NCBI GenBank assembly: GCA_030867685.1
Contig: JAQOWU010000007.1
Location: 372,001 to 436,000 of the forward strand
From: Wickerhamiella versatilis
Lineage: Eukaryota
Direction of reading: 5' to 3'
DNA length: 64,000 nt
A program made the position numbers and the translations under genes. Under the pieces are notes generated by a model. That model saw only the letters and a program-made list of their open reading frames with translations, was not told the origin of the DNA and searched no databases. Of the stretch, positions 19,995 to 63,458 are shown piece by piece. Positions within the stretch are counted from its first letter, which is position 1. The number at the start of each line of letters is the position of its first letter.

Positions 19995-20019
19995 CAACCA
20001 GTCTCAGGTAGTGAGGTGG
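19995..20019 (-). repeat. Dispersed ~25-bp intergenic element, copy A (CCACCTCACTACCTGAGACTGGTTG)
   Basis: 21 bp identical to 43206-43226; near-identical to 63435-63458. Confidence 0.85.
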
Positions 20020-20268
20020 CTTGAGATTCGCTGAAAAGTGGTTTGGGAGGAGGCCCTGGAGTTGAAAGTAAGAGAAGTCAAGCTAATCTGGTACATCTCA
20101 TGCTGCAGAAGGTCACCCCATTTGCGATAGAAGCCTATACAAACAAAAGGTTCGCAATTATAGCCGATCTATCTATAAATGTATTTACTAAATATGTGAG
20201 TCTATTTTGCTATGAAAGCTCACTTAGTATCAACTTTTGTTTGCTTAAATACGTTTTCGCAACTGCGA

Positions 20269-21060
20269 TTAGTCCGCATGGTGCTTGGTTGTGACTCTTT
20301 GAGCAGTAGGCATATATATTGGCGGGAAATCAAAGTAGCAGTTCTCATAGTTAGCCAGACCTGCGAACATATTGTAGAATCCTAGGATTCCAACTACAAT
20401 TCCAGTCCAGCCTCCTGCGAGAGCAACATTGTCATTTCCTGTCAATTTCGAGACTGCTAATAACAGAAGAGTAACGTCCAGCGTGAACACTAGTAAGAAG
20501 AAGGGTACGGTCGACCTGATTGTAGTTATCGTCATAAAAAAAGTGAATATAAACCAACACCACAGGAACATAGCCGTTGCTTGATTAAACTCTTCTGCTG
20601 TATAGGCATCAGCCACACCGAAAGGCCCAGTCAAAAGTATGGAATAGGAAATCCAAAACATACCGTAGGAACCTAAAGCAACAGCACCCCAAGTATTCTC
20701 AACTGCAAGTTCCCACATCGCGGCAAGAAATTGGACAAATCCTCCGAAGCTGTATGCAACGGAAGTGATGATGATAGGCTCGGAGACGCCACGAATTCGC
20801 ACGTTGAGCATCGACAAGAAAAGTGTAGTCACGCTAAAACTCGCCAAGCCCATGGGGGTCGGATTACCAAGTTTCCTTTTTGAAGGAACGTAGAGTCCAG
20901 GTCTGAAGTCACCACCAAATGCAGTCGACAAATCTGACCGAAGATACTTTTGACGGCCGATATGGACATATTCTTGGTTTTCTCCAGAAGTTCTGATGCG
21001 CTGCAACGGCTCGTCGACAGAATGGGCGTCTTTGACGCTATCTCCGGAATGCCCAAACAT
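20269..21060 (-). CDS. ADY2: Gpr1/Fun34/YaaH acetate/carboxylate transporter (Ady2/Ato-like)
   Basis: LGNPTPMGLASF (NPAPLGL signature), ENTWGAVALGSYGMFW, AFGG. Confidence 0.9.
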   Translation of the reverse strand: MFGHSGDSVKDAHSVDEPLQRIRTSGENQEYVHIGRQKYLRSDLSTAFGGDFRPGLYVPSKRKLGNPTPMGLASFSVTTLFLSMLNVRIRGVSEPIIITSVAYSFGGFVQFLAAMWELAVENTWGAVALGSYGMFWISYSILLTGPFGVADAYTAEEFNQATAMFLWCWFIFTFFMTITTIRSTVPFFLLVFTLDVTLLLLAVSKLTGNDNVALAGGWTGIVVGILGFYNMFAGLANYENCYFDFPPIYMPTAQRVTTKHHAD

Positions 21061-21262
21061 AAAGGTGGGGTACTTTTTTTGGAGGGGTTGCTTACCTACT
21101 CCTCTCTGAAACGTTTATTACTAATATACATTTATTACTAATACTCCTATTAGGCTACGGCTACAGCACTATGGATTGGCATTCGGTAACATCGCTTCTC
21201 AATAAACAATTCTATCATCGAAAAGGCTTCAGTTTATGTGCTACTTAAGCTATTCCTGACAG

Positions 21263-22612
21263 CTATTTAACTCCTTTGAGTAGGTTTTCTAGCGTGATAG
21301 ACTTAGGACGTTCAATAGGCAAACCAAGAATACGGTCCCATATGACTTGGGTGAGTGGTCCAATTGCTCGCGAAACACCAAACATCACTGTGTAGTAATT
21401 CGTTTCATGAATGCCATAGTGGTGGAAGAGTACACCAGACCCCGAATCCACGTTAGGGAACGGGTTTGATGTCTTGCCATGCTCGGTAAGGACAGCTGGA
21501 GCAATTTCGGAGATATTTCGCACGAGCTTGTATACAGGATCTGCAGAAACTTCTGGATTGGAGTCTGCATAGCCTATAAGTGCTGCAAATCGGGGGTCGG
21601 GACGTCGAAGAACTGCATGTCCGTAACCAGGGATCACTCGACCCGAGTTAAGGATAGACCAAAGGTATTTTACCACATCTTCGCTGGTGTATGTCTCAGG
21701 GATTGATTTTTTCATATCAAGGACAAACCTCAGCACCTCCTGAGCTGCGAGACCGTGCAATGGGCCTGCCAAACCACTCAGACCGGCAGAATATGCCAAA
21801 AATGGATCAGAGAGTGCAGAGCCTACAAGATGGGTAGAGTGGGCACTGACATTTCCACCCTCATGGTCACCATGCAAGGCTGTATAGAGTCGGAGAAGAT
21901 TCACAAATCCCTCGTTAGTGCCATATCCAAGTAATGCTGCATAATTCAAGCTCCAGTCGGCTTTAGGATCGAGATTTCCCGGCAATTCGCCGCCACCCTT
22001 ATAAGTGTTTTGGTATATCCGAGCAGCGACGGCCGGAAGCTTTGCCAATAGCGTCAATACATCGTCGAAGGTGTATTCCCAATAAGATGTCTTAGGAATT
22101 CCTCGCTCGTACGCCTTGGCGAACGTAGACTCGTTGTTAAGAGCGGCAACTGCAGATACGAATTGCGTCATTGGATGCGTGTTCGGAGCTAGGCTCTCAA
22201 GCAGTCTAGTCACATACTCTGGCAATTCACCCCGCTCTGCCAGTAGCTGCGAAAGTTCTGATACCTGCTCTGATGTCGGTACATTTCCAGTTAGTAGCAA
22301 CCAAAACATTGCCTCGGGAAGCATCTCACCTTTTCCTTTGTACTTGGGGAGGAGGGCCTGGCAGTCGGCAATAGTCTTGCCGTGGAAGCGAATGCCCTCA
22401 TTTGCATCGAGCTGAGAGCCTTCCCAAACCATTGACTTGAGGCCACGCATCCCTCCAATAACATTTGATACTTGCAAATCACCTAGAGACTTAGACTTGT
22501 AGTCGGTTTTGAGTTTCTTCAGTAGCTCTATTTTTGCAGGAGCAGCCTCAACAAGCTGTGACTTGAGTGTAGACGTGTATCTCACACCTCCAATGGCTCT
22601 TTTTTGTAACAT
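21263..22612 (-). CDS. CIT3: Mitochondrial 2-methylcitrate synthase (Cit3/McsA)
   Basis: Citrate-synthase fold with LHGDHEGGNVSAH and GLAAQEVL, where citrate synthases have SDHEGG and LANQEVL; Arg-rich presequence. Confidence 0.9.
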   Translation of the reverse strand: MLQKRAIGGVRYTSTLKSQLVEAAPAKIELLKKLKTDYKSKSLGDLQVSNVIGGMRGLKSMVWEGSQLDANEGIRFHGKTIADCQALLPKYKGKGEMLPEAMFWLLLTGNVPTSEQVSELSQLLAERGELPEYVTRLLESLAPNTHPMTQFVSAVAALNNESTFAKAYERGIPKTSYWEYTFDDVLTLLAKLPAVAARIYQNTYKGGGELPGNLDPKADWSLNYAALLGYGTNEGFVNLLRLYTALHGDHEGGNVSAHSTHLVGSALSDPFLAYSAGLSGLAGPLHGLAAQEVLRFVLDMKKSIPETYTSEDVVKYLWSILNSGRVIPGYGHAVLRRPDPRFAALIGYADSNPEVSADPVYKLVRNISEIAPAVLTEHGKTSNPFPNVDSGSGVLFHHYGIHETNYYTVMFGVSRAIGPLTQVIWDRILGLPIERPKSITLENLLKGVK

Positions 22613-22811
22613 ATTAATTATTGTAAACGTGGGAACTGGTTTTCAACATCCTTCATGCGGGGAAACATGGTCTAGGGTTACTATCACCGATCGACGGTAA
22701 TTAGCCTCCTTGAAAGAAGGTATTAACACTTGTATGTTTCCCTATGAATAAAAAACACTCATTTGGATTTGAATTGTTAACAAATATAGACTTCTAGATG
22801 CATAGCTACAT

Positions 22812-24308
22812 CTACAGTGTATAGAGGTCTACATAATTGTCTACATCCATATTTTGAACATTTTCGTCACTGGCAGTCAGAATTGCCTTAACTTTCTCCT
22901 CCGGAAAGCGGCCATTTAGATGGCGCTCGAATTTCTTGAGCAAGGCCGGTGTGCCTTCCGCACGCCGTTTACGATGTCCGATAGGGTAATTCACTTCAAC
23001 GTCATCTAAAACTGTACCATCATTCAAGGTTACCTGCAATGCATTGCCTATGTAACGCTTATCAGGTGCATGGTACTCGGTTGAAAAGCGTTTATCCTCT
23101 ACACACTCCATCTTCGATCGCAATTCATCAACCCGAGGGTCTGCGGCAACCTTGTCCTGATAATCATCAGCAACCAATGTACCTTGAAGCAGGGGTATGG
23201 CTACCATGTACTGTATGCAATGATCGCGGTCAGCGTAGTTATACAATGGACCTGTCTTATCAATGATGCGGAGGGCGGCTTCCTGGGTGCGGATTCGAAC
23301 ATGCTTAATGTCGGCAGCAGATTTTCCGAGCTCAGAAAGCTTTTTATGAACTATCACTGCAGCTTCAACGGCAGTTTGTGCATGGAACTCTGCAGGGAAG
23401 GATATCTTGAAAAGCACGTTTTCCATTACATATGAGCCATACTCACGCTGGAATTTGAATGGCTGTCCCTTGAAAAGGACATCATAGAAGCCCCATGTCT
23501 TGGCTGTGAGAATACTGGGCATACCACCTTCACCACCTTTGACCAGAAGTGCAAGGTTTACCGCTCGGGAGCACGCATCACCAGCAGCCCAGGACTTGCG
23601 GCTCATGGTGTTTGGCGCATGTCTATACGTACGAAGTGACTGTCCATCTACCCATGCTTGAGAAATAGCTGCCATTGTTTCATCGCGTGACAGACCCAAC
23701 ATCTTAGAGACGACTGCCGTTGAGGCAACCTTGACAAGCACTACATGGTCAAGTCCCACCCTATTGAACGAATTTTCAAGGGCAATACATCCCTGGATTT
23801 CGTGTGCTTTAATCATACCCTCAAGCACATCCTTTATCTTGAATACACGGCCCTCCTTACCACCAGTAGCCTTGGCGAGCCGAGTCTGCCAGTCCGCCAC
23901 TGCAAGTATTGCGCCAAGATTATCACTTGGATGACCCCACTCAGCAGCAAGCCAGCAGTCGTTGAAGTCCAGCCAGCGAATTAGGGCACCGATAGAGAAT
24001 GCGCCACGAACTGGGTCGTGTATAAAGGGAGTACCTGGTACCCTCACGCCGTTGGGAACAACCATACCTGAAACAAACGGTTTGACAATCTGATTGGCTT
24101 GTGGATATTTGAGGGCCTCTAGACCACATCCAAGCGTATCAAGAAGGCAGAGGCGGGCTGTTTCCCAGGCCACAGGACTGGTCACTTGAAAGTCATGGAC
24201 ATAATTTGCTATGTCGGCCACTTCTTTATCGTACGATGGTCGTACATTATCCCTGACAATACTCATATAGCGTGCTTGCGTGGGTTTTAAAAGAAGTTGT
24301 CTTAACAT
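22812..24308 (-). CDS. PDH1: 2-methylcitrate dehydratase (PrpD/Pdh1)
   Basis: RWLDFNDCWLAAEWGHPSDN, LRTYRHAPNTMSRKSWAAGDA, FPAEFHAQTA. Confidence 0.96.
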   Translation of the reverse strand: MLRQLLLKPTQARYMSIVRDNVRPSYDKEVADIANYVHDFQVTSPVAWETARLCLLDTLGCGLEALKYPQANQIVKPFVSGMVVPNGVRVPGTPFIHDPVRGAFSIGALIRWLDFNDCWLAAEWGHPSDNLGAILAVADWQTRLAKATGGKEGRVFKIKDVLEGMIKAHEIQGCIALENSFNRVGLDHVVLVKVASTAVVSKMLGLSRDETMAAISQAWVDGQSLRTYRHAPNTMSRKSWAAGDACSRAVNLALLVKGGEGGMPSILTAKTWGFYDVLFKGQPFKFQREYGSYVMENVLFKISFPAEFHAQTAVEAAVIVHKKLSELGKSAADIKHVRIRTQEAALRIIDKTGPLYNYADRDHCIQYMVAIPLLQGTLVADDYQDKVAADPRVDELRSKMECVEDKRFSTEYHAPDKRYIGNALQVTLNDGTVLDDVEVNYPIGHRKRRAEGTPALLKKFERHLNGRFPEEKVKAILTASDENVQNMDVDNYVDLYTL

Positions 24309-24348
24309 AATTAGAGATTACCAATGATCTGACTTTGTGTAACTGCCA

Positions 24349-24404
24349 CCTTTCCCCTTTCCCCTTTCCCTTTCCCTTTCCCTTCCCTTCCCCACTCCCA
24401 CTCC
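24349..24404. repeat. Polypyrimidine (TTTCCC/TTTCCCC)n tract
   Basis: cctttcccctttcccctttccctttccctttcccttcccttccccactcccactcc. Confidence 0.9.
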
Positions 24405-24605
24405 TACCTCAGTCTGCGGGGTACTTGTCGTAGATCGCCGAGACGCGGTTTCTACCGGAGCATGATGGAGAATCATTTATTGATAATTAGAGAAAAAAAG
24501 TGCATGCTTAATACTTTGGTAATGGAGGTCAATATGTGACTCCGAAATTTACGAGGACTTAAGATTATTGATATATTTGCTCTGCGCCATACGATAATAA
24601 ACTTT

Positions 24606-26243
24606 CTAGAACGTATTTTCGGTGGAATCGGACCCTATAGCAGATGTTGCTGATGAGCCAGACATCACGGATGATTGAACGAGATCATAATAATTAGCGC
24701 CCGACCATTTTTGATGCCTTAACATATCGCAGTTAGTGCGCTTTTCCTCGGATTGGATTTGGTCGACATAAGCCTTCATACCTTCAGTGCGGAAGGCTTG
24801 GCTCAGCTTCCATGTTGCCAATGCATTGCTGTGGAGACCTGCAAGTGACACGAGTTGTAACACGAACCCACTCTTGGCAAGTTCCCAAATGAAATCTTTC
24901 ATATCTTGCTCAGTGAACCCCTCGGCGAGCCAATTGAATGATGGCGACAAGTTATATACCAGCCACTTTTCAGGATACTTTTCATGTATTTTGGCTGCAA
25001 AGGACTTTGCCTGCTCCAGATCAGGCCTCTTGGTCTCGAGCCAGAGCATATCAGCGTACGGTGCGAAGGCGAGTGTCCGTTTAAGCGCAGGGTTCATTCC
25101 ATTTCGCACAGGATGATATCCTTCCCGCGTTCGTGGAGCATCCCAATTGAAGTAAATATCTTTGCCTAGAACTTTCCGAGCAGCATTGCGCGCTATAAAG
25201 TTAGATTTTCCTTTGGCCTCTTTGAGATAATCCTCATACCTTTCAGAAAGATTCTGGGATTTTAGTGCATCATGAACAGCTTCATCAAATGTAACCAGCT
25301 TGTGTGACTTCATCCAGTCAGCCTCGAGGCGATTTATTTCTTCCGCACTAGCACCGCGACTCTCAGCATTTATCACAAGGTCCATCAATGGCTCTACTGG
25401 TTCAGTGACTCCAAGAATAAACTCTTGATCGCCGGGATCGACACTTGAAGACAGTAAGCTCGAGGATTCAGAATCTGTTCGGGCAATAATGAGGTTAGAG
25501 GTCCCCATAATATCCCACTGAAACCTAGTGGCAAGAAGACGAGATATGTGCTGCTGGGTAGGTACAATGACTTTTCCAGCTAGATGACCGCATTTTTTAC
25601 CGCCATGCAGCTGGTCTTCAATGTGGATAGCTGCGGCCCCTCTTTCTGCAAACAACTTTGCAAGCTTCATGACGGAGCCTAAGCCACCATGACCAGTGTC
25701 AGCATCAGCTATGATTGGCCTTATGTAGTCAATGTATCCTTGGCGCTTTTTTTCCTCATCAGACAGTTGTGTCCACTCCAACCAAGCTTTTCGGTCATGG
25801 AGTTGTTGTGCCTTGAAAATGCGTTCCACCTGGTTAGGGACTGTATCATAAGGGTAATCACCAAAGTCAGGGCTCACCTCATTGGTAGTGGTTAGCAGAC
25901 TTGAGCATGCCCATCCTGAGATATATGCCACCTCCTGATTCGCTGCACTCTCAGCCATTTGCACAGGATCAACGGAGCCGATGGTGTGGACTGGTAAACG
26001 CTCTTTAAATCTCTGGGAAAACAATGCAAAAAGTTTCTGTGCCTGTAGGTCTGAAGGATATTTTTCAACAAGAGTCCCTCTAAGAGTTGCAATCTTAGCT
26101 CCGTCCCAATTTCGCCGGACTCCCCGGAATCGGTCACTAGCAAACCAAGCATCAATTTCAGTGATTTGTGAGGCTAAATAATTGAGCTCTTCTCCCATAG
26201 TTGGATATGGAAACTTAGAGATTGTGGATACAAACCTTTTCAT
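24606..26243 (-). CDS. ICL2: 2-methylisocitrate lyase (Icl2/MclA)
   Basis: [11 protein letters not shown] and LQLVSLAG; Icl1 has KKCGHM and WQFITLAG. Confidence 0.93.
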
Positions 26244-26502
26244 GTGTCCTCACCAAAAAAGTGTGGTCTGAAGCTGACTGATGGAGTGTGTGGAGGGGGA
26301 GCAGTTAGGGAAAGTGGAGATATATTAATAATCAACAAATGGCAATCAGACGAATTAGATATTCAGAAAATGAATATATCCCCCGGCAACAAAATCCCGA
26401 AGGCTTCTATAAAACCCTATTTTTCTGCTAGTAATAAAACCTTAACGTTGGAATGTATCTCCGACAGTGTATACATTCCCGAAGGATAGATCCTGTGCTC
26501 CA

Positions 26503-26956: not shown

Positions 26957-27102
26957 TGTTCAGTGAGCACAATGTATGCATAAATTAAAAATTTCGATTA
27001 CGGCATATATATGCACATATATGGTTCAAGCTTAGATACAGGAAGCCCAATTATATGATAGGAAAATAGAAATCTTGGCATGAGGGTTAGAAAAGCATAT
27101 TT

Positions 27103-27951
27103 TCAATGTTCGGGAATCACCAGGGGGCCAAGCTGGTCCAAAGATTCTGATCTCACATTCGAATCGTAAGCTGAGAACTGTACGGTACTATCTCTGAATG
27201 CTTTCAGGCACTGAACAGTACCAGCGGTGCCAACAGAACGTACTTCCCTTACTTTTTCAAGATCTACTCGGAATGGGAAAATTTCCTGACGTTCCCCTGA
27301 ACGGTGCATAATCTCACCTTCTGGACCAATCGCTTGTGACATCCCAACTCCAAGCAGTCCGGCACCATTAACATCCACAAAGTAACATTGGTTTACGATA
27401 GCATTTGCCTGGGCTACAACAAGTTCTTGCTTACGGTCTAGAGTAGTCGTCATTAGCGGGTGAAGAATTATTTCGGCACCCATGAACGCCAGTTCCCTTG
27501 ATACCTCGGGTATCATAACGTCATAACATATCAATACCCCAAACCGGCCGATACCTGGTACATCGAAGGTCACAAACTTATCTCCAGGAGTGTATTTGTC
27601 CTCGTATGGAAGCCATGGAAATACTTTTCTATAGCGAGTTACGACAACACCGTCAGGACTTATCACGCTCAGCGTGTTGTAAATACATTCTCCAACTTTT
27701 TCCAGTAAGGTACCTGGAATCAACCAGACATTATTAGCTTTAGCAAGATTGCAGAAGACTTGTTCCGTTGGTCCTGGAAGTGATTCTGCTTTGTCGAAGT
27801 TTTCTCCAAAGCAACAAAGTTCACTGAAGACAATCATTTTAACCCACGGGTATTTTTGCTTGGTTTCTATGATAAGAAGCTTCATTTTTTCCAGGTTGTC
27901 ATACTCTGTCGCATCTAGCTGAACTGCAGCTATGCCGAATGATTTCCCCAT
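27103..27951 (-). CDS. Carbon-nitrogen hydrolase (nitrilase superfamily), bacterial type
   Basis: Catalytic triad contexts VFSEL, YRKVFPW, LICYD. Confidence 0.88.
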   Translation of the reverse strand: MGKSFGIAAVQLDATEYDNLEKMKLLIIETKQKYPWVKMIVFSELCCFGENFDKAESLPGPTEQVFCNLAKANNVWLIPGTLLEKVGECIYNTLSVISPDGVVVTRYRKVFPWLPYEDKYTPGDKFVTFDVPGIGRFGVLICYDVMIPEVSRELAFMGAEIILHPLMTTTLDRKQELVVAQANAIVNQCYFVDVNGAGLLGVGMSQAIGPEGEIMHRSGERQEIFPFRVDLEKVREVRSVGTAGTVQCLKAFRDSTVQFSAYDSNVRSESLDQLGPLVIPEH

Positions 27952-28108
27952 AGCACCCCCCAGCTAGCCTCTAGCTTTGTTTGACAAGCCAAAATGAGTA
28001 ACATTTTAATTACAAATCATAATATACATATATAGTCTTTCATCTTACAACGAAATCCATGATTGAATGGATCAGCTATAAATTGGATATCTCGATTCTA
28101 CTACTTAA

Positions 28109-35387: not shown

Positions 35388-35960
35388 TCACAATACGGGA
35401 GATCCTACACAGAGGAGTAGAACAGCCGCTCTTATATGCATTCGATACTCCTCGGGAGAAGTCACGGTATCTCTGATACCCCGAGATACTATTACTAGGT
35501 TACTGGCCAAAATCTTCGGGGTTAATCCAACTTTAGCCCATCGCCGTGAGATATAAGTATTTTCTAGAAACCGCGTCAACATTTCTATGGTTGTTTCCCT
35601 CGCGATTTTTTCATATTTCTCACCAACAGTGGATAGTTCCTCAGCTAACTCTGTGCCAGTGAGGTCAGCCAGGGAAGTACTGAACGCCTTAATTAAACGA
35701 TCTTCTATTGAAATCTCGCGATCATGAAGACACGATTCGAAATTTTTCAGTCTTGGTGTCATTCCCCGTTCAGCAACTGCGCATAAGAGAGCTTCTTTAT
35801 TTGGAAAATGAGCATAAACCGTTTGGCGCGATACTCCAGCAGCTCGGGCTACGTCATCCATAGTTGTCTTCTTGTATCCAAAATTACTGAATGACTGCCA
35901 TGCCTTACTCACTATAACCTTTTGTAAAGGTGGCGCGTACTGGCCATCGTCTATTACCAT
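35388..35960 (-). CDS. TetR/AcrR-family transcriptional regulator (bacterial type)
   Basis: Intact HTH: FSNFGYKKTTMDDVARAAGVSRQTVYAHFPNKEALL; 190 aa. Confidence 0.92.
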   Translation of the reverse strand: MVIDDGQYAPPLQKVIVSKAWQSFSNFGYKKTTMDDVARAAGVSRQTVYAHFPNKEALLCAVAERGMTPRLKNFESCLHDREISIEDRLIKAFSTSLADLTGTELAEELSTVGEKYEKIARETTIEMLTRFLENTYISRRWAKVGLTPKILASNLVIVSRGIRDTVTSPEEYRMHIRAAVLLLCVGSPVL

Positions 35961-40898: not shown

Positions 40899-40912
40899 CC
40901 TGAGACTGGTTG
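40899..40912 (+). repeat. Dispersed intergenic element, partial copy D (CCTGAGACTGGTTG)
   Basis: 14-bp exact match to copies A and B. Confidence 0.7.
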
Positions 40913-43202: not shown

Positions 43203-43226
43203 CCACTCACTACCTGAGACTGGTTG
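43203..43226 (+). repeat. Dispersed intergenic element, copy B (CCACTCACTACCTGAGACTGGTTG)
   Basis: 21-bp exact match to the reverse complement of 19995-20015. Confidence 0.85.
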
Positions 43227-44403
43227 GATAATTCTCCACAGCAGTACTCGTATTAATCCACTTACAATTCAGTGAACTTCCCAAATTTTTGTAAACTACA
43301 GCAAAGCAACCGAATCTTGTGTAAGTATTCTTTAGTCAATCCTCTAGGTGGTATTAGGGTTGTAATGCAAAGTCTGAACACGTGTGTACATTTTAGTAGT
43401 CTCATGACATTAAAGCTTACATATTTTGATAGAGGATATCCTTCAGATATACACGCCTTCGGAAATGGCCCGCTAAAAAGGGTTTGGTGATTATCACATT
43501 GCTGCATGTCCGAGGGTGTCGTATTCGAGAATAGATACTAGATGGTTCCGGATAAAGCTTGTCGATTTATATAGGCACTAGAGCCCAGAACTGCATTTTC
43601 GCAGCAAATACTCGTACCGGAGATTACATGCGAGTAAAACAACCTCTATGAAACGGGGGTTAATGCGATTTGACTCACTAGCTTCTTGTTCTTTAATCTA
43701 AATTTGTAACACGAACCTTCCCTTCTTTCCAGCGTGGAGGTAGGCGGTGGCAGGCTGTGGGTTCGAGCTGGTTTACGCAGTGTTCCTGTGTGAAAATAAT
43801 AGTATACATCTAATCGACGTTGCTCGGTATCGTAGGCTACACAGCTTCCTTATCGCGCTGGGATAGTTCCTACTCACGACAACTTCGTAGGGGCAGCAAC
43901 AACTCAACATACATATCCGAGATGTTATTTACTCATCAGAGTTTAGGTTCGCTTGTGAGAAGAAAGGGGAAATGAATACTGAGCGCTACAGTTAGTTTAC
44001 CATAAGAAGTCTTATATTATACCGCAGCACACAGATTTCTAAAAGCTGTTTCATCTTACCTGCTGACCAGAACTCCGATCGCTGTCATCTCTTCCCCTCA
44101 CAGTATTATCAAATATAGCATAGATCGAGATTTATAATCAGGTAGATGCAGTATCATTGTCTTAGTCCCTAGGCCTCTAAATGAAGGCGATCGTGGTATA
44201 GGTGATTTATTGTACCTCTGCTGGTGCTCAAAACTACTATGGCGCTATAGGCGAGGTTAGTTTCTGGCTTTATGTGTTTCTAACCAGACCTTCCCCGCAT
44301 TGTAAGCCTCTTTCTTCCGAAAATCTAACCTTACCCACAATGGCCACCTGGTATCCGAGCGAATATAAAAAGCCCCAAATATCCGCTCAGTCATGATATC
44401 AAC

Positions 44404-45444
44404 ATGACAGCGCAGGGATTTGCACGTGCTGCGACATCTGTGAAAACTAAGGACCCTTTGGTGGTCAAAGATATTCCCATTCCCAAGGTGGGGAAGCGTG
44501 ATTGCCTGGTGAAAATGGAGGCCTGTGGGGTTTGCCATACCGACTTACATGTGCTTGAGGGTGACTGGACTGCATCAGACCCCTCTTTTGTCCCATATAT
44601 TGCCGGACATGAGGGTGTTGGAATTGTTGTCGACAAGGGTGACGATGTGACATCAGTCGAGATTGGCGAGCGTGTTGGTATTCCATGGCTATATTCAGCA
44701 TGCGGTCATTGTGAATATTGCTTCTCCGGATGGGAGACGTTGTGTAAGAATCAGAAGAACCCCGGTCTTCACGTCGATGGTGCATTCTCAGAGTACGCAA
44801 TTGCTTCTCCTGACTGGGTTGCTCACCTGCCCAAGGATATTGATGTATACGAGGTTGCGCCGGTGTTGTGTGCAGGCCTCACTGTTTACAAGGGTCTTAA
44901 GGTGACAGATTGTAAGGCCGGCGATGTGGTGGTGATTGGTGGCTGTGGTGGTCTAGGCCAGATGGCTATCCAGTTTGGCAAAGCCATGGGGTTCGATGTT
45001 ATCGGTGTTGATATCGATGATGGCAAGGTTGCAACGGCTAAGAAGCTGGGTGCCATCGATGCAGTGAATGCGTTGAAAACAGACCCAGTTAAGTATGTCC
45101 AGGAGAAGTACGGAGGAGCTCATGGTGCACTTATCACTGCTGTATCTCGTCCTGCATTTGCACAGGCAATGGGTTATCTCCGTCGTGGTGGCACTATGGC
45201 GCTTAATGGTCTGCCACCTGGAGAGTTCCCTATTGATATCATCCAAACCGTGTTAAATGGAATTACTATTCGAGGTTCCATTGTAGGATCGCGGCTAGAT
45301 ATGATCGAAGCGCTGAAGTTCTACGTTGAAGGAAAAATACACACCATCTATAAGAAGGATAAGATTGACAACATTAACAAAATCTTTGATGATTTGAGCA
45401 AAGGAAAGGTCGAAGGTCGAGTTGTTCTGGACTTTAAGAGCTAG
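44404..45444 (+). CDS. ADH1: Zn-dependent alcohol dehydrogenase, bacterial AdhP type
   Basis: ACGVCHTDLH, GHEGVG, structural Zn CGHCEYC...C; WETLC, TAVSRPAF, GLPPGEFP, IRGSIVGSRLD are AdhP-like rather than fungal Adh1-like. Confidence 0.9.
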   Translation: MTAQGFARAATSVKTKDPLVVKDIPIPKVGKRDCLVKMEACGVCHTDLHVLEGDWTASDPSFVPYIAGHEGVGIVVDKGDDVTSVEIGERVGIPWLYSACGHCEYCFSGWETLCKNQKNPGLHVDGAFSEYAIASPDWVAHLPKDIDVYEVAPVLCAGLTVYKGLKVTDCKAGDVVVIGGCGGLGQMAIQFGKAMGFDVIGVDIDDGKVATAKKLGAIDAVNALKTDPVKYVQEKYGGAHGALITAVSRPAFAQAMGYLRRGGTMALNGLPPGEFPIDIIQTVLNGITIRGSIVGSRLDMIEALKFYVEGKIHTIYKKDKIDNINKIFDDLSKGKVEGRVVLDFKS

Positions 45445-50181: not shown

Positions 50182-51237
50182 CTAACTGCGCAGGTAGTTT
50201 ATCACTGGTTCACCCCATGAGGGTCGACCTCTGTAAGCGGCTACATCGTCGGGCATCGTGGCAATGTTGTCAGCTAAAACTTGACCATATCCCTCAGCTT
50301 TGATTTGTGAAATGGGATATAAGTATGTTCTCTGGGTAAAAGCAAGAAACTTGGTCTGTGGAAGTCGGGTAAGAATTTGACGAGTCACACGAGCGTAAAC
50401 TTCATTGTCGAAATCGGGTGCTCCTGCGCCAAAGAAGGATCTGTTTGGTGTTGGTCTCCACTCTTCATATGGCGAATCTGCTATTTGTATTAGCCAAGTG
50501 ATGCGTTGGACCCATTGTCCAACCTTCATTTTGCTGAAGTATTTGTTCATGGAGAATTGCAAGTGTTCCTTATAACCAGGCACCCGTGTGTGGATATCTG
50601 TCATTTTCTTGTTGTTTTTATCAGTCCACAAATAATTCACTGAACTTACACCTGCGGCAGCACGCTGCATGTACTCATCACAGTCAGCATTGTATTCGAG
50701 TAGCAAGAAATCCTCCTCGGAATTCTCGCAGAGCAGGCGCAAAAGGTCTTCTGAAGACAGACCACTTGCAGCCGCTTTACGTGGAAGCTCTTTACCCTTG
50801 ATCTTGTTCAAGATCTTCTTGCCCTTGACCTCGAAGTATTGTGGATATCTTTGAGTAAGGGTGCACATCGCAAAGTCATACAATTCTCGAGCCGCATTCT
50901 TCGTTTCAATTGTGTCTGCTGCAAGACATGTGCTATTTGGATTATCCTGCATTACTTTTCGATGAATATCGGTGATAACTTCGTAGTCCGAGTCTACAGT
51001 GAGCCATTCTTCATGAGTGGTTCGTCCAATATTCATTACTTCACGGTAGTTGGGTTTGAATGGGCGGTACTGAGGGATCTTTTCTGTTCTCCAGTCGTAA
51101 CCTTCTGAAACCGGCTGAACATCAACATTCTCATGTATTTTGCCGGAATATTGTAATTTAAACCAGACCAGCTGGGCCACACGGAAAATTAAATAAAAGC
51201 AGAGGAGCAAAAGTACGGCTTTTGATATCTCTATCAT
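50182..51237 (-). CDS. DUF3445 family protein (heme-dependent oxidative N-demethylase alpha-like)
   Basis: YRPFKP, QRYPQYF, EEDFLLL, IHTRVPGY, RQILTRLPQT; ATG at 51237. Confidence 0.8.
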   Translation of the reverse strand: MIEISKAVLLLLCFYLIFRVAQLVWFKLQYSGKIHENVDVQPVSEGYDWRTEKIPQYRPFKPNYREVMNIGRTTHEEWLTVDSDYEVITDIHRKVMQDNPNSTCLAADTIETKNAARELYDFAMCTLTQRYPQYFEVKGKKILNKIKGKELPRKAAASGLSSEDLLRLLCENSEEDFLLLEYNADCDEYMQRAAAGVSSVNYLWTDKNNKKMTDIHTRVPGYKEHLQFSMNKYFSKMKVGQWVQRITWLIQIADSPYEEWRPTPNRSFFGAGAPDFDNEVYARVTRQILTRLPQTKFLAFTQRTYLYPISQIKAEGYGQVLADNIATMPDDVAAYRGRPSWGEPVINYLRS

Positions 51238-53428: not shown

Positions 53429-54037
53429 ATGAGAGATGTACAAATTGTCTGGGCTCATCCGCGGGAAAACTCTTTGACAGCTGCAGTGGTTTCTGCAGTT
53501 AGTGAGGAGCTTAAGAAACATCATTTCTCTGTAACCGAGCTTGATTTGTATCGCACGGGGTTTAGACCCATCTTGGAGGCTGCTGATGAGCCTGACTGGG
53601 CGGACTGTTCTAAGGTGTATTCTGATGACATTATGAAGTTAGCAAATGACCTGAAAAGCAAAGATTCAGTCATTTTCGTATTTCCTGTGTGGTGGTATTC
53701 GGTCCCAGCCATTATGAAGGGGTACATCGATCGAGTCTGGAACCACGGTCTGGCCTATGGACCCAAGCAATTGTTTCGATTGAGCAGCGTGTTCTGGATT
53801 GGATTAATGGGAACAACTGAGCAGAATTGTGCAGCGCTTGGCCTAAACACTAGTATGGAGACTCAGCTCAATGTGGGAATTGCTGAATTTTGCGGTATCA
53901 AGGATAGTGAGACGCTGATTCTCTACGAAACAGTTGCTGAGCAAGGCACGTACTCAAGAGAGCATTACTTAAGAATAATTAGCAATGCTCGGGAACGCAT
54001 TGCTGAATGGGCAAGAGCTCTCACAAATAATTTATAG
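53429..54037 (+). CDS. Flavodoxin-fold NAD(P)H:quinone oxidoreductase, bacterial YcaK-like
   Basis: VWAHPRENSLT, ELDLYR, DEPDW, FPVWWYSVPAIMKGYIDRVWNHGLAYG closely follow E. coli YcaK as recalled. Confidence 0.88.
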   Translation: MRDVQIVWAHPRENSLTAAVVSAVSEELKKHHFSVTELDLYRTGFRPILEAADEPDWADCSKVYSDDIMKLANDLKSKDSVIFVFPVWWYSVPAIMKGYIDRVWNHGLAYGPKQLFRLSSVFWIGLMGTTEQNCAALGLNTSMETQLNVGIAEFCGIKDSETLILYETVAEQGTYSREHYLRIISNARERIAEWARALTNNL

Positions 54038-54136
54038 TATTTAATTCGGTACCGATTTCTCACGTCGTCCTCTAAACTCACTAGGAGACTTATTTAGTAT
54101 ATTTAGAAATAAAAAAAATAGCTATTGGGTACTCGC

Positions 54137-57696: not shown

Positions 57697-57747
57697 ATAT
57701 TATATAATTTTATGTATGGGAGTCATTTATCTTTCTCTGACGTTCGG

Positions 57748-57755
57748 TCACGTGA
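57748..57755. promoter_or_regulatory. Cbf1-type palindrome TCACGTGA upstream of YCT1
   Basis: Perfect CDEI/Cbf1 consensus 52 bp upstream of the YCT1 ATG. Confidence 0.6.
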
Positions 57756-57934
57756 AGTGACGATAACATTGAATCTTCGTATCCTCGCCTCTAATAATGA
57801 CTTTTGAACTAAGTAGAGAATCTATAGGATGGTCAAGATTTTATTAATATAACCAGGATAAAAAAGAATATCAATCATATGAGGAGGATTTTTGAGTGCG
57901 TGCCTTTTTACGGTCAAAAATGTCAGCAGCATTT

Positions 57935-58867
57935 TTACTGTGAAGAGGCAGGTCTTCCTACACCCCCGCCTACGATTGCTGGACAAGGGCCATAAGAAGC
58001 ACCAATTTGAGTTTTCATGTAAAATCCGTCATGTGCACCCCAGTACAAAAAGTCACCTTCAAATAGGCCTAGGAGGTGATGGAGGTGAGTTGGACTAGCT
58101 GGACCAAACGGGTCCTCTGTATTAGAATAGTAGTGATAATCTGTTCCGTTTTCCGTCTTAATCCAAATCATTCCTGATGGATGAATAAAACCCCAAGCAG
58201 AAAATGGTACGCTAGGAACCCAGTCGTTGCCATTCCAGACACCCGTATATTTCGACACATCTGCGTTACCTTTGAATTTACTGTCGAATGCTGAGGCATA
58301 TGCCAAGTTGCCCACACGAGGTGGAGCAAAGCCGACAATCTTATCAATAACATCGCCAAACTCATGCTCTATTGCCAGAGCAGAGAGCTGCATGACTGAG
58401 CAACCCATACTATGCCCCGCTAATACCACCTTTTCGTTAGGATACTGCTGAAAAGCGGATTGCAATTCTGACTTGACATCATTCCAGGATTTTCTGAATT
58501 GCACAAGGAACCCATGGAATATCAGAGCATCACCAGGAATACCTAACTCTTCATCCGGTGGCCACATCATCAGATCAACGTCATGGATAATGTCGTCAAT
58601 ACTGGATGAATTCGTGCCCTCAAACGAAACGACAATCCCAAACTTGTCTGAGTGGTAAACATTGACCTTCTGCTCACTTTCCCCATAATCCAGCGATTTA
58701 AGAAGCTTGTCGGATCCAACGGTAAACTCTGATGAGCTGACGCTATTGCAGTAGGTATCCATAACTGTAGCTGCGAGCTCGGTGTAGTTTGATTCTTGCC
58801 AGAATGGTAGGCTGGTGGCATGTGCACAGGCACATATTATTGAAACAACATAGAGGAGAAATTGCAT
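57935..58867 (-). CDS. Secreted class 3 lipase
   Basis: Signal peptide from ATG 58867; FEGT, IFHGF, GHSMG nucleophile, PRVGN, DWVPSVP. Confidence 0.9.
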   Translation of the reverse strand: MQFLLYVVSIICACAHATSLPFWQESNYTELAATVMDTYCNSVSSSEFTVGSDKLLKSLDYGESEQKVNVYHSDKFGIVVSFEGTNSSSIDDIIHDVDLMMWPPDEELGIPGDALIFHGFLVQFRKSWNDVKSELQSAFQQYPNEKVVLAGHSMGCSVMQLSALAIEHEFGDVIDKIVGFAPPRVGNLAYASAFDSKFKGNADVSKYTGVWNGNDWVPSVPFSAWGFIHPSGMIWIKTENGTDYHYYSNTEDPFGPASPTHLHHLLGLFEGDFLYWGAHDGFYMKTQIGASYGPCPAIVGGGVGRPASSQ

Positions 58868-59202
58868 TCTTCCTTTCTGTTTGTCTGTATTTTGTGCAGG
58901 CACAGGAATTTTATAACATACTGCGGTATGATTTGCTAAGCCAAGTGATCGACATTGCCGGTGCAATTCGGTTCGGATATGCAACCAGGGGACCACGTGC
59001 TGCTGTGATTTTCGCAAGACAGGTCCACATGAGATTTAGAAAAAAGTAGATCTTGCATTCATCTATATATCGTAGTGAGCGTATGCGGATACTAGATACT
59101 CACAGTTTACCAGCACTCGTAGAATCTTTTTAACTTTCTATTCTATTTTGAAATATGCCATTACGTCATCCATATATAAAACAAATTCAACCTGGATTCA
59201 AT

Positions 59203-60447
59203 TTAATATTGATTTGACCTCGGAATCTCACCGCCGAGTACAGGAAGTAGATTCTCCAGAAGACAAGCATGATATTCCAATCGAAATTTGTCAAGGTGCT
59301 CACTACATCGGCACCGACATCCTACACCATTAATACTTTCCGTGTCAGGCTGACCAAGAGTCGAATCATATAGTACGTCAATCTGCTTAGTTGGTGCATT
59401 CCCAGGACATAACCCTAGGGTTGAATGTGCATAACCAATATCCCGGAAGTAGTGGATCTGTGAGGCATTGAGCATCATAGCCACCGCCAATGTATGGACT
59501 GGCGCGTCACCCCAGCGCTCAAACCAAAACCCACCTGCCTCTTCTAAAGCCTCGAAGTACTGCAAGTACAAAGGGCTGTTCCAAAGATCTACTCTCGCAA
59601 TTTCGAAGTTTGACCAAAAGTGACACATATTGAATACCTCGTTCGCCATGGGCTCACCATATGATGGATCGTTATCTTTGGCAGCTTTGTCCGTACTTAA
59701 TGCAACTGTTTTCCATAGATCCGTCTCTGGGACATCCCACTGTTTCCTGAATGCTTGAGTGACACGAAAAAGGTTTTCCACAGTTGATTTTATCTCCCGT
59801 ATGAATGCATTGAATCCATACCATTTACCATTACGTTCCATCTCTACGAAAACGTCATATGTCGTATCACAGAAGTATTCTACATCTGGCTCAACCCGCC
59901 AGTACCATTTATATTTCTTGACGAGAGGGTGTCTGAAGAAGAATCCACTGAAAAAACGACACATCTGGTGGTAGGATTTCTGGTCTCCATATGTCACATT
60001 ACGGTCAGCTTGAAATTGTAATGCATCATTGATCCAGCGGTCATCGATATTTTGTGGAAATTCCCAGTGGTCCGCTGGAATCACCCCAAACTCACATACG
60101 GATTCTGTTTCCTGGCGGATACGATTCATAAATTCTTCAGAAAATGGCTTGTCATTCAAAAACGTCCATGGATAATGAAACCATTTATTGAAATGGTCCT
60201 CCATGGATCTCACACTGTCTATAAGGCCGTCGATGTCTGAATTGCGGCTTAGTGCTAAGAGAGTAGCATTAGCTCTCGGTCCTCGCGTATCGGGCACACG
60301 ACAGCCTACAGCAAAAGGCTTGTCGTACTTACCACCCATACCGGGATGCAATACAATCTGAGATCTCTGTTTTTTATATCTAGATATGCTCAAGATGATC
60401 ACAAGTATACATATGAGTAGGTAAGAGCAAAGTCTTCGACATCGCAT
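59203..60447 (-). CDS. Kre2/Ktr family alpha-1,2-mannosyltransferase (GT15)
   Basis: Type II anchor; YPWTFLND, SYHQMCRFFSG, WYWRVEPDV, CHFWSNFEIA, ERWGDAPVH. Confidence 0.95.
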   Translation of the reverse strand: MRCRRLCSYLLICILVIILSISRYKKQRSQIVLHPGMGGKYDKPFAVGCRVPDTRGPRANATLLALSRNSDIDGLIDSVRSMEDHFNKWFHYPWTFLNDKPFSEEFMNRIRQETESVCEFGVIPADHWEFPQNIDDRWINDALQFQADRNVTYGDQKSYHQMCRFFSGFFFRHPLVKKYKWYWRVEPDVEYFCDTTYDVFVEMERNGKWYGFNAFIREIKSTVENLFRVTQAFRKQWDVPETDLWKTVALSTDKAAKDNDPSYGEPMANEVFNMCHFWSNFEIARVDLWNSPLYLQYFEALEEAGGFWFERWGDAPVHTLAVAMMLNASQIHYFRDIGYAHSTLGLCPGNAPTKQIDVLYDSTLGQPDTESINGVGCRCRCSEHLDKFRLEYHACLLENLLPVLGGEIPRSNQY

Positions 60448-61105
60448 GTATGCTTACAAATACTGAAACATGTTTCGCGCCGTTCACTGGAATATTTGTT
60501 GAGAGTATACTATGAGAATTCCATTTTTTCCTTTGTACTAAGGAAAAAGATCAAGATCATTCAAATAATCACATGACTCATCCATTGTGATGATACCGTG
60601 CTTCAGGATGAAGATTGGGAAAGGAAAGATGGAGCAGCCAAAAGTGCAGATTACATATGTTTTAAGAAAGTTTCCTTTCCTATGACTTCTTTTGATATCT
60701 AATCAATTTATTATTTCAGAACCATTACCGATGATATATTTGGTTCATACTGCAGAGTATTGCTATTTGCTCAAATAGGACTGAAAGGAGTTATTCAACA
60801 CGTCAACGCCGTGAAACGTCACCCTCCAAGCCTAAATTGTCTTGCGGAGAGAACACTTACTTGCTTGCGGCAAAGCTGATGCCACTCTATTAGTAACATA
60901 CGCCTCGCCAAAGTCGGGGATAAGCACCAAGAAATGATGTTAATTTGTGCACGTGCAAAGTTCTAAGGATCTATTTCAGTTAACACTTAAAACTTTTGCA
61001 GAGGTTTTGGTGATACCTTTGGGTACAATACGATAGGTACCTGAGTATGACTACGCACACGTGCCTATAAGGGTAAGTCGTTATTAGCAACTTTCTCCTT
61101 ATTAA

Positions 61106-61342
61106 ATGGACAAGCCAAAACAAATTGGAAGCCGAAGAAATGCCCCAATTTGCCAAGGATGCTTTATGAAGGGTGTGAAGTGTAGTGGTAGTAAACCTGA
61201 ATGCAAGAGATGCATCAAGAAAAGGCTAAAATGCGTATATCCAGTGGAAACCAACCCCGGTGACGAGGACAATATATCTTTTTTGTTTTCATTAAACTTA
61301 TTTGTGCAGCTTGCATTGTACATGGATGCCGAAGACAATTAG
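61106..61342 (+). pseudogene. Zn2Cys6 DNA-binding-domain-only ORF (truncated TF)
   Basis: CQGCFMKGVKCSGSKPECKRCIKKRLKCVY with all six Cys; stop after 78 aa. Confidence 0.7.
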
Positions 61343-61722
61343 CATTGGCCGCCTCAACGAAAAGTGTTATTCTTTCGTTGAGTCGTAAGAAAGGCTTGAA
61401 GTCGAGGAAATTGGATATTATGGTCCTCAAAGTTGCTTCTGCCGTTCTGCATCGCGCTCAATTGGTTCCGTCACACCATTAATTTATATTGAGAAGAACA
61501 TCAAATGAAAATGCATATACCACACCATTACGCTGTGCTATGACGTATTTTATGATGCCGTAAGTTATGACCTTTGCTATCTCTTGGCATGAAAGTAATG
61601 CGCGCAGGTTATTTAAGCAGTGAATAAAGCAAATTATAGGATGAATTTGGTTAAACATGATGTGCTACGCCTCGCAGTGTGAAATTTATAGAATTAGAGA
61701 TATTGTTTATTGATACAGGCCA

Positions 61723-62943
61723 TTAGTAAGGGTATACGCTAGAGTTCCGGGCACAATAAGTGCTCCAATCGAGTACCAATGCGGAATACATCTTCTCAAA
61801 TAATGCAGGGGTATCCACGCTATTCACATATGTGGCATTGGCCCATCTTCCTCGTTTGGGCTTAAGGTTGCTGGGCCACATCCTCATATTACCATAGAAG
61901 GGGCTATCATATGAGGTGTCCACAGCCACAGAGACATTCATAGAATTCGTAATATATTCTGGGAAGGCCATGAATGCTGAAACTGCTTCGTCCCAAAGCG
62001 GGATAGTGACGTCAGATGCATTGCCGGTGCCAATAAAGCTGCTGATAGCGAATAGCGCTGGGTCTTCAGTAATGTTATCATAACTAAATTCTTCAATAAG
62101 TTTGTCAAACATATCCTGTGGCGGAAAAATATAGTTAGTAACATTTCCACCGATATAAACCTGCTTGAATCCTGCAGTCAACACTTTTTCAGCTGCTTCT
62201 GGGTCAAACATAAGGTTGAAATCAGTGTTGATGTCATTGTTCGTATCCCCTCCTGTAACTTGGGCGTATTGGTTGTCAATATAACCACCCATGATCCATA
62301 GTGCTTTCACATTCTTGACAAAGTCCGGCCACATACTTACAGCTTGTGCGACCGTGGTCATGAGACCTGCAGCAAAGATCTCTAGCTCGCCAGGATACTC
62401 ACGGGCGGCTTGAATTAGCGCCATCGCTGCTGGGATATCTTTATTGTAGTTGACATCGCTCTGATTATACGTGTCCTTGTATCCCTCGCTCCATGCTCCT
62501 TTCCACACAAATTCTCCAAAAAGCTCCTCCCAAACTTCAAACGTATTTTCATTGCGGAGAAACGGCTGAGCTGCTCCGGCGTAAAGCGGAATGCAATCCG
62601 ATATGCTGTAGTTAGCCAGTACATCTGCCGCTTGTCCGAGTGCGTTAGGAAGAGAGGTATCCCCAAAACTCCCTGAGATGCCAACAACCTTCATACCGCT
62701 CAGAAGAGGCAGGATCAGGTTAAGCGGTGTAAGTCCATCATTGTCTATGAAGACTTTACGCTCTTTAGGTGGTGATACGGTTGTATTCAAAGGATAAGAA
62801 CAATTTGACAGGGTATAGTTGGATGTAAAATTGCCGAATTGCGTAGAGCAGTTACTAACCGTGCCGTTGCTAATTGTAAAATTGAAACTTGCAGCAGCAA
62901 AGGGCAGAGCAGCCAGTGTAGCCGTGAATATGCCCATCACCAT
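61723..62943 (-). CDS. Secreted inosine/uridine-preferring nucleoside hydrolase family protein
   Basis: Signal peptide; VFIDND, LWIMGG, DFNLMFDPEAA, LWDE. Confidence 0.85.
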   Translation of the reverse strand: MVMGIFTATLAALPFAAASFNFTISNGTVSNCSTQFGNFTSNYTLSNCSYPLNTTVSPPKERKVFIDNDGLTPLNLILPLLSGMKVVGISGSFGDTSLPNALGQAADVLANYSISDCIPLYAGAAQPFLRNENTFEVWEELFGEFVWKGAWSEGYKDTYNQSDVNYNKDIPAAMALIQAAREYPGELEIFAAGLMTTVAQAVSMWPDFVKNVKALWIMGGYIDNQYAQVTGGDTNNDINTDFNLMFDPEAAEKVLTAGFKQVYIGGNVTNYIFPPQDMFDKLIEEFSYDNITEDPALFAISSFIGTGNASDVTIPLWDEAVSAFMAFPEYITNSMNVSVAVDTSYDSPFYGNMRMWPSNLKPKRGRWANATYVNSVDTPALFEKMYSALVLDWSTYCARNSSVYPY

Positions 62944-63434
62944 TCTAGTTGTTAACTTCGATTCTTATGCAGTAGCGACCCTTATATAGGGTTGTTTCGG
63001 TAAGCTTACGAATGACTAACAATAAGTATAATGTCATGATCAACAAGCATTTTCGATCCGTGCTTGCCTAGAAGGAGAAGGAGGGAAGGCAAACAAAATA
63101 TCTTGAAATCTAAGTCTTGGAAAATGTTATACGATTAATATCCAGAAGTGCAAGTTGTAGCGTCTATAAAGATTCGAACCATGCTCAAATGCGTGATTTA
63201 CATGTTATTCCCTTTTAGGATATATATAATTAGTCAGATGGCCCCGGAAAGAAATTTCCGGGGGCAGTCTGAAGGATACAGAGAGGTTAAATCTTGTATA
63301 TAGGATACCTTTAGGAAAAAAATAAAGCAAGATCTGTATCAGGCCACAATAGATACCATACAAATGCACCAAAACATTTTTTCTTTTGTTTCTTCTATGC
63401 ATATGCATTAAAATAATTACGTAACCTAGATAAA

Positions 63435-63458
63435 CCACTTCACTACCAGAGACTGGTT
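63435..63458 (+). repeat. Dispersed intergenic element, copy C (CCACTTCACTACCAGAGACTGGTT)
   Basis: 22 of 24 positions match copy A. Confidence 0.85.

What the first reader, a model, noticed from the sequence alone, without database searches (positions are those of the whole stretch)
19995..63458. Unexplained ~25-bp element dispersed through intergenic DNA at ~20-kb spacing
Seen: consensus CCACYTCACTACCWGAGACTGGTT at 19995-20019 (-), 43203-43226 (+) and 63435-63458 (+). There is a 14-bp partial copy at 40899-40912 and a degenerate one at 24398-24416. Copies A and B share 21 identical bases, all copies are non-coding, and copy A lies between convergent genes, which argues against a simple promoter site. 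It is non-palindromic and long for a single TF site. Hypotheses: replication-origin or chromosome-structure element, interstitial copy of a long yeast-type telomere repeat unit (one strand is G-rich: TCAGGTAGTGAGGTGG), or the terminus of a decayed mobile element.
Basis: seen in the sequence. Interest (0 to 1): 0.8.

Follow-up and report, generated by a model that had tools for sequence, protein, structure and literature searches.

The report
Telomerase scars scattered between yeast genes
The short repeat is a piece of this yeast's unusually long 41-letter chromosome-end repeat, and hundreds of single copies lie between genes near the chromosome ends, most likely written into broken DNA by telomerase before the break was rejoined.

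Summary
The element is real, but it is part of a 41-bp unit and has no 20-kb period. The unit forms end-pointing tandem arrays at or near four contig ends, two of them the ends of one scaffolded chromosome, and an intact TERT gene is present. It is the telomere repeat of a Wickerhamiella/Starmerella-type yeast. I found 231 single interstitial copies in 840 kb of end-biased DNA (roughly 350 genome-wide). Of these, 228 lie outside ORFs. Density falls about 30- to 100-fold from chromosome ends to middles, and copies near ends point towards the telomere. Eighty of 231 stop at one fixed 3' position, and mismatches are spread evenly along the unit. Four paralogue pairs are filled/empty. One perfect 50-bp copy is cleanly absent in three runs of other strains. 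Best reading: telomerase adds about one template pass at internal breaks, which are then rejoined, as for mammalian short interstitial telomeric sequences but far denser. The telomerase RNA was not found. Earlier notes of this scan saw the same family on other DNA of this genome. The chromosome-end arrays, TERT and the strain-level empty allele were tested here.

The parts
19977..20019 (-). Copy A: near-complete single unit of the 41-bp telomere repeat (43 bp, 3 mismatches), pointing towards the nearer (left) chromosome end; between convergent Zn2Cys6 and Gpr1/Fun34/YaaH genes
40899..40912 (+). 14-bp perfect fragment of the unit between two tandem aspartyl protease genes
43203..43232 (+). Copy B: 26-bp ungapped match (43207-43232, 1 mismatch), extended leftwards by 4 bases if one base is missing; between an aspartyl protease gene and an Acetobacteraceae-type ADH gene (divergent)
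63428..63458 (+). Copy C: 31-bp match, 3 mismatches, upstream of a nucleoside hydrolase gene
24398..24416 (+).
   Evidence: score 7; 221 of 913 control tiles reach it

Best explanation
The element is the telomere repeat of this yeast (41-bp unit; about 0.93 for this part alone). The dispersed copies are short interstitial telomeric sequences written by telomerase. Mechanism: (1) a break or a collapsed or reversed fork exposes a 3' end in intergenic DNA (inferred); (2) 1-5 host bases pair somewhere along the long RNA template (shown at 3 filled/empty sites); (3) TERT copies to the template boundary, so copies start anywhere but end at one position, with about one pass and rarely two (pattern shown, enzyme inferred); (4) the end is rejoined to the original distal DNA or to other DNA by end joining, without target duplication (shown for clean insertions; junction enrichment shown); (5) the patch decays neutrally and survives mainly outside genes (shown). 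Forks running towards the telomere, or healing of the centromere-bearing end, would give the end-pointing bias in the outer 130 kb (inferred).
For: End-pointing tandem arrays lie at C1 right, C4 right, C7 left and C8 left. Contig overlaps join C4-C3-C1 into one chromosome with an array at both ends. An intact 766-aa TERT ORF has RBD and RT domains. Published telomere tract lengths of W. versatilis (410, 121, 329, 410, 206) all lie within 2 bp of multiples of 41, as those of two other species fit their 30- and 20-bp units (PMC13376923 supplement file 16). 80 of 231 copies end at unit positions 26/27 (p about 2e-45), and the next base is random in 84. 205 of 231 fit one 50-nt template window, against a mean of 146 and a maximum of 156 in 200 phase shuffles. 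Interior mismatch rate is 0.02-0.17 per position with no protected core, and transitions dominate. 228 of 231 are outside ORFs although 58% of the DNA is coding. 4 of 8 two-flank paralogue cases are filled/empty, two of them with 5-base in-register host priming. The perfect 50-bp copy at C8:309256 is absent in 3 of 4 runs laid: 20 RNA reads in X24 and one contig in X19 skip 49 bases with 1 shared, one contig in X14 skips 53; X13 does not bridge the site. Loose ends with mixed flanks pile at the same 3' position in all 4 runs. Ku (2 genes) is present.
Against: The telomerase RNA gene was not found, so the template boundary is inferred from the copies themselves. Two of six ends have no array in this assembly, and the arrays at C7 left and C8 left have 1.8 and 3.1 kb of other sequence beyond them. 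Filled/empty pairs have no outgroup, so insertion versus precise deletion is argued, not proven. 151 of 231 copies do not end at 26/27, and 26 of 231 do not fit the 50-nt window. Two Pif1-family helicases are present, so loss of this known brake on telomerase at breaks does not explain the density. The end-pointing strand is not G-rich, which is unusual for a telomerase product. Plain two-ended break repair would not by itself give an orientation bias. The 840 kb sample is biased towards ends and known hits.
Confidence: 0.7

Rival explanations
1. Fossil ends: each copy is the stub of a newly healed or former telomere onto which further DNA was later added (capture, break-induced replication from a telomere into an internal copy), so the end domains grew outwards. 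This also needs telomerase and may account for a share of the copies alongside the best explanation.
For: Orientation towards the end is 74:15 within 50 kb and 63:25 at 50-130 kb, and vanishes further in (17:18, 9:10). Copies sit at edges of duplicated blocks more often than matched intergenic sites (44 of 228 against 109 of 1140, p 7e-5) and less often inside them (4 of 228 against 72 of 1140). The last 3.1 kb of C7 follows a 50-bp copy on C7 and a 12-unit array on C8.
Against: Empty alleles join both original flanks, so those copies are internal insertions. Almost no interstitial copy exceeds 59 bp. The C7/C8 shared block may be an assembly artefact. Most copies (184 of 228) are not at a detected duplication edge.
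Confidence: 0.17
2. Selected binding sites: the copies are kept as sites for a telomere-binding Myb protein and relay silencing or act as back-up telomere seeds over the long end domains.
For: Density gradient and orientation resemble subtelomeric SiRTAs of S. cerevisiae (PMC10055226, passages). A two-Myb Tay1/Teb1-like protein (name recalled) and a TRF+Myb Tbf1-like protein are encoded. 33 of 40 intergenic gaps in the last 100 kb of C7 hold a copy.
Against: Mismatches are flat along the unit and transition-rich, the 5' edges are ragged, and different copies cover non-overlapping parts of the unit. A perfect copy is strain-specific. No bias by neighbouring gene direction (44:43).
Confidence: 0.07
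3. Telomerase-independent capture of telomeric DNA fragments or circles, or gene conversion from the arrays, at breaks.
For: A few copies cross the boundary and reach 53-59 bp. Capture is the standing alternative for mammalian ITSs (PMC2246262, passages).
Against: Random fragments of a tandem array would end at any phase; 80 of 231 end at 2 of 41 positions, and lengths are capped near one unit.
Confidence: 0.04
4. Terminus of a decayed mobile element, or a replication-origin element.
For: Dispersed, intergenic and high in copy number.
Against: No shared sequence beyond the fixed end, no target duplication, tandem arrays at chromosome ends, and a 30- to 100-fold density gradient with no regular spacing.
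Confidence: 0.02

Closest known systems
Short interstitial telomeric sequences (s-ITS) of mammals inserted at double-strand breaks (Nergadze et al. 2007, PMC2246262; review PMC6410037; passages read)
   Same: Short telomere-repeat patches at internal sites, filled/empty loci, 1-5 base in-register microhomology at the break, little or no target duplication, decay with age.
   Different: Here the unit is 41 bp and copies are about one unit or less, so the template boundary can be read off. Density is about 1 per 3 kb in the outer 100 kb (human: 714-2920 ITSs in the whole genome per PMC6410037). There is a gradient and orientation bias over hundreds of kb. No TER-derived flanks were seen.
Long telomerase-type repeat units of budding yeasts (K. 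lactis 25, L. kluyveri 26, Tetrapisispora 25-29, W. domercqiae 30, putative Pichia norvegensis 43; PMC7857110 passages and table part 2 of 3, PMC8211666 passages)
   Same: Long, homogeneous unit in short terminal arrays; TERT present; inferred template slightly longer than one unit (45-50 nt).
   Different: 41 bp is near, but not above, the longest putative motif listed (43 nt). The end-pointing strand is not G-rich (9 G, 11 C). This sequence is not among the Trichomonascaceae rows seen.
SiRTAs and X/Y' interstitial tracts of S. cerevisiae (PMC10055226, passages)
   Same: Telomere-like sequences enriched and telomere-oriented in subtelomeres, random in orientation elsewhere.
   Different: SiRTAs are mostly TG-rich look-alikes that stimulate telomere addition within X/Y' elements. 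Here the copies are the products themselves, in unique DNA, over 300-500 kb.
W/S-clade 'end' domains (PMC13376923; passages, section 9 part 1 of 2, supplement file 16)
   Same: Three chromosomes, long terminal domains rich in horizontally acquired genes; the window (372-436 kb from an end) has TetR, bacterial-type ADH and similar genes.
   Different: In the text I saw, that paper gives telomere coordinates but no motif and does not mention dispersed telomere units. Its supplementary PDF and some files could not be read.

Membership tests
Telomerase-made telomere repeat | Tandem arrays at chromosome ends, same orientation at each end | tested here: met
   4 arrays, all end-pointing; 2 run to the last base of a contig and cap one scaffolded chromosome; 2 of 6 ends lack an array in the assembly
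Telomerase-made telomere repeat | Intact TERT gene | tested here: met
   766-aa ORF, PF12009 and PF00078 above cut-off, no stops
Telomerase-made telomere repeat | Telomerase RNA with a template of more than one unit | tested here: inconclusive
   Best candidate proved to be a polymorphic insertion; an expressed flank from another strain was not found in this assembly
Telomerase-made telomere repeat | G-rich strand runs 5' to 3' towards the end | tested here: not met
   End-pointing strand 9 G, 11 C; a usual feature, not a strict one
Telomerase-made telomere repeat | Bal31 sensitivity; shortening in a telomerase mutant | not testable with these tools
   bench test
Telomerase-inserted short ITS | Empty orthologous or paralogous site with joined flanks | tested here: met
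   4 of 8 paralogue cases; 3 of 4 runs at C8:309256
Telomerase-inserted short ITS | Host bases in register with the inserted repeat | tested here: met
   5 bases at C4:26922 and at C7:3329, 1 base at C8:309256; 2 other sites unclear; few sites
Telomerase-inserted short ITS | Synthesis stops at a template boundary | tested here: met
   80 of 231 end at positions 26/27, following base random; boundary not checked against a TER
Telomerase-inserted short ITS | Dependence on telomerase activity | not testable with these tools
   needs a TERT deletion or a marked template
Transposon terminus (TIR/LTR/MITE) | Shared internal sequence and target-site duplication | tested here: not met
Conserved protein-binding site | Protected core positions, fixed edges on both sides | tested here: not met
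   flat mismatch profile, ragged 5' edges
Replication origin element | ARS activity, ORC binding, even spacing | tested here: inconclusive
   spacing is not even; activity not testable

The most novel reading that the evidence does not exclude
In this yeast telomerase is a routine break-repair polymerase. Its one-pass patches glue duplicated and horizontally acquired DNA into the chromosome ends, and the accumulated copies then spread telomeric chromatin inwards. That would explain both how the 300-600 kb low-expression, HGT-rich end domains of the W/S clade are built and why they are repressed.
Probability: 0.15. Interest if true: 0.9.

Novelty: new variant of a known kind. Interest (0 to 1): 0.72.

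Why it matters
Whether interstitial telomeric sequences come from telomerase or from captured telomeric DNA is hard to settle with 6-base repeats. A 41-base unit records where each synthesis began and ended, giving several hundred natural footprints of telomerase at internal breaks, some recent enough to differ between strains. It suggests that telomerase action at breaks, normally suppressed, is common and tolerated in a lineage reported to have lost many DNA repair genes. It also offers a testable handle on the unexplained long end domains where these yeasts keep horizontally acquired genes.

Tried and rejected
C8:309256 as the telomerase RNA gene: rejected, since the 50-bp match is absent in other strains and the 501-nt region folds no better than shuffles (z 0.70). 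A flank read next to the repeat in 158 RNA reads of X24 gave one 3-mismatch genome hit with no repeat beside it and matched none of the fetched copies by eye, so the TER is still unplaced. Run search: no RNA holder listed among indexed runs; one raw RNA run was added by species label. Loss of Pif1 or Ku as the cause: both are present. Rap1 DNA-binding domain and DNA ligase IV Pfam searches gave no hit, but nothing rang in the controls either, so these are uninformative. Metagenome contig scan for a 20-mer: 0. Rfam and tRNA scans of the window: 0. Tandem-repeat RNA: 286 X24 reads carry a unit-to-unit junction, but DNA carry-over could not be excluded in this unstranded library, so TERRA is not claimed. 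Random mid-chromosome tiles were not obtained; the middles are covered only by the genome-wide motif lists and 52 kb of gene-centred loci with 1 hit. Literature searches without a report of dense single-unit ITSs in a yeast or of this motif: (open-licence library only).

Full report
Observation. The window is intron-poor yeast DNA and is G000:C7:372001-436000 in a 9.88-Mb, 8-contig assembly. A 20-mer of the consensus has 88 genome matches at up to 2 mismatches and the reversed control has 0. The 'degenerate' copy at 24398 is at chance level.

The unit. Many of the 88 matches are 41 bases apart at contig ends. Arrays of an exact 41-bp unit (one copy: G000:C4:85258-85298) run to the last base of C1 and C4 and lie at C7:1760-1899 and C8:3142-3635, all pointing 5' to 3' towards the end. 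Overlaps between contig ends (C4 start with C3 start, 2.5 kb; C3 end with C1 start, 1.2 kb; C8 end with C5 end, 1.2 kb) give three chromosomes of 2.57, 2.64 and 4.63 Mb. The C4-C3-C1 chromosome has an array at each end. The right ends of C7 and of C8-C5 have none in this assembly. Beyond the C7 array lie 1.8 kb of noisy, partly inverted repeat sequence that looks like a read artefact (inference). Beyond the C8 array lie 3.1 kb that are 99.9% identical to the last 3.1 kb of C7. An intact TERT is encoded, as are a TRF+Myb protein and a two-Myb protein that I take from memory to be Tbf1 and Tay1/Teb1, two Ku genes and two Pif1-family genes. The end-pointing strand has 9 G and 11 C.

Organism. The best named relatives of a window housekeeping protein are Sugiyamaella and Trichomonascus (79% and 75%). 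The window's ADH is closest to Acetobacteraceae AdhP among named hits, which I recall as a mark of the Wickerhamiella/Starmerella clade. In a published table (PMC13376923, supplement file 16) all 5 W. versatilis telomere tracts are within 2 bp of multiples of 41, while the tracts of W. domercqiae and St. bombicola fit their listed 30- and 20-bp motifs. So a 41-bp telomere unit was probably already detected in that species, although I saw no motif printed. The paper's supplementary PDF, one scanned PDF, two other files and files 13-15 were not seen and may give it. The longest putative yeast motif in PMC7857110 is 43 nt, so 41 is not a record.

Dispersed copies. The other half of the unit has 233 matches at up to 3 mismatches, control 0 (only the first 100 were listed). 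I scanned 839,837 bases in 50 segments, chosen near ends and around known hits, against all 41 phases on both strands. This gave 246 hits and 0 for the reversed unit. I dropped 15 hits in arrays, noisy ends and contig overlaps, leaving 231. Since 133 of the 231 would be caught by the pattern, the genome holds roughly 350 (rough). Only 3 of 231 touch an ORF of 150 aa or more, although such ORFs cover 58% of the DNA. In the complete genome-wide lists (96 sites) 71 lie within 300 kb of an end, which is 18% of the genome. Density is 10.3 per 100 kb in the outer 50 kb and 0.1-0.3 beyond 500 kb. With the sensitive scan, 33 of 40 intergenic gaps in the last 100 kb of C7 carry a copy. Orientation towards the nearer end is 74:15 under 50 kb, 63:25 at 50-130 kb, 17:18 at 130-300 kb and 9:10 beyond. 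The window, 372-436 kb from an end, lies in the thin tail, with one copy pointing out and three in.

Anatomy. Numbering the unit 0-40, 59 copies end at position 26 and 21 at 27, the excess expected from a chance next base (80 of 231; p about 2e-45). The 30 bases after that point are random in 84 copies. Starts are spread out. Among 71 copies that cross position 26/27, 45 start at positions 18-26, with a peak at 22. A 50-nt window holds 205 of 231 copies and a 45-nt window 186, against at most 156 for shuffled phases at 50 nt. The longest copy is 59 bp. This is what one pass over a 45-50 nt template with a short terminal redundancy would leave, with an occasional second pass. The fixed end is the 3' end of the strand that points to the telomere, the strand telomerase makes. 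Mismatches are flat along the unit and mostly transitions, which fits neutral decay rather than a protected binding core.

Filled and empty sites. Of 8 copies with both flanks matched elsewhere in the fetched DNA, 3 are contig overlaps, 1 is ambiguous and 4 have a partner without the copy. At C4:26922 five host bases continue in register into the patch, which stops at the fixed end. At C7:3329 five host bases prime and four match at the far junction. The strongest case came from reads. I took the perfect 50-bp copy at C8:309256 for the telomerase RNA template and laid four runs on it. Three of them, from three study codes and with many flank differences, carry the empty site: 20 reads from 17 starts in X24 and one contig in X19 skip 49 bases with one shared base, and one contig in X14 skips 53. 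X13 does not bridge it. There is no target duplication. So a full-length patch is present in this strain and absent in others, which rules it out as the TER and points to recent insertion, though no outgroup polarises it. In all four runs loose ends with mixed flanks pile up at the same 3' position. Copies also sit at edges of duplicated blocks more often than matched intergenic sites (44 of 228 against 109 of 1140; p 7e-5).

Mechanism. Shown: identity with the terminal repeat, one-unit length, fixed 3' end, in-register priming at a few sites, clean presence/absence, neutral-looking decay, gradient and orientation bias. Inferred: that TERT writes the patches at breaks or stalled forks, and that end joining closes them. 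For the orientation bias, forks moving outwards would present end-pointing 3' ends. Telomerase extends reversed forks at telomeric repeats in mammalian cells, but that abstract reports no extension at non-telomeric reversed forks (PMC10032592, abstract), so this step is a guess. Healing of the centromere-bearing end followed by re-extension is the other route. The W/S clade is reported to lack many repair genes, for example XRS2 and NEJ1 in part of its species (PMC12629084, passages); I did not test these genes here.

Comparison and novelty. It works like mammalian short ITS insertion (PMC2246262, passages; PMC6410037, passages) and meets the tests I could run. It differs in unit length, density and chromosomal gradient. 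My searches found no report of such dense single-unit ITSs in a yeast; they cover open-licence papers only. PMC12983215 and PMC13234504 (passages) added nothing. Earlier AI notes of this scan describe the same family in other windows of this genome; they were leads, not support. Verdict: a new variant of a known kind, interest 0.72.

Noticed in passing
G000:C8:91-3189 and C7:2636509-2639608 (L038, L039): The last 3.1 kb of C7 recurs at 99.9% identity outside the telomere array of C8; it follows a 50-bp copy on C7 and a 12-unit array on C8. Either telomere-to-ITS recombination or a misjoin.
   Followed up: partly
Distal ends of arrays on C1, C4, C7 (L041, L042, L037): 3 of 3 arrays stop at unit position 16-17, nine or ten bases short of the fixed 3' end of the dispersed copies; possibly a defined double-strand terminus.
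   Followed up: no
L086:4940-5020 (C8:309240-309320): The flanks of the strain-specific insertion themselves resemble short pieces of the unit on the opposite strand, so the empty site may have attracted telomerase.
   Followed up: no
L086:4961, run X24: 158 RNA reads enter the repeat at unit position 23 from a single flank not found in this assembly; a candidate for the telomerase RNA or a strain-specific copy in an abundant transcript.
   Followed up: partly
L086:4956-4996, run X24: 286 RNA-library reads carry tandem units; telomeric transcripts or DNA carry-over.
   Followed up: no
window 35388-35960, 44404-45444, 53429-54037, 1968-3206, 27103-27951: Bacterial-type genes in the window: TetR regulator, Acetobacteraceae-like ADH, flavodoxin-fold reductase, FAD oxidoreductase, carbon-nitrogen hydrolase; only the ADH was checked against relatives.
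   Followed up: partly
window 21263-26243: Adjacent citrate-synthase-like ORF (by eye), MmgE/PrpD dehydratase and isocitrate-lyase-family genes on one strand: a methylcitrate-cycle cluster.
   Followed up: no
window 6430-6440, 11848-11859, 50513-50524: Perfect 11-12 base matches to the unit (control had none at this score); two lie inside ORFs; not counted.
   Followed up: no
G000:C7:1162-1562 kb; C8:1562-1610 kb and 2268-2582 kb: Mid-chromosome copies seem to cluster loosely; could mark centromere regions or old fusion points.
   Followed up: no
L045:274-2574: TERT is compact (766 aa) and so divergent that only one close relative (73%) and two distant ones were found.
   Followed up: no
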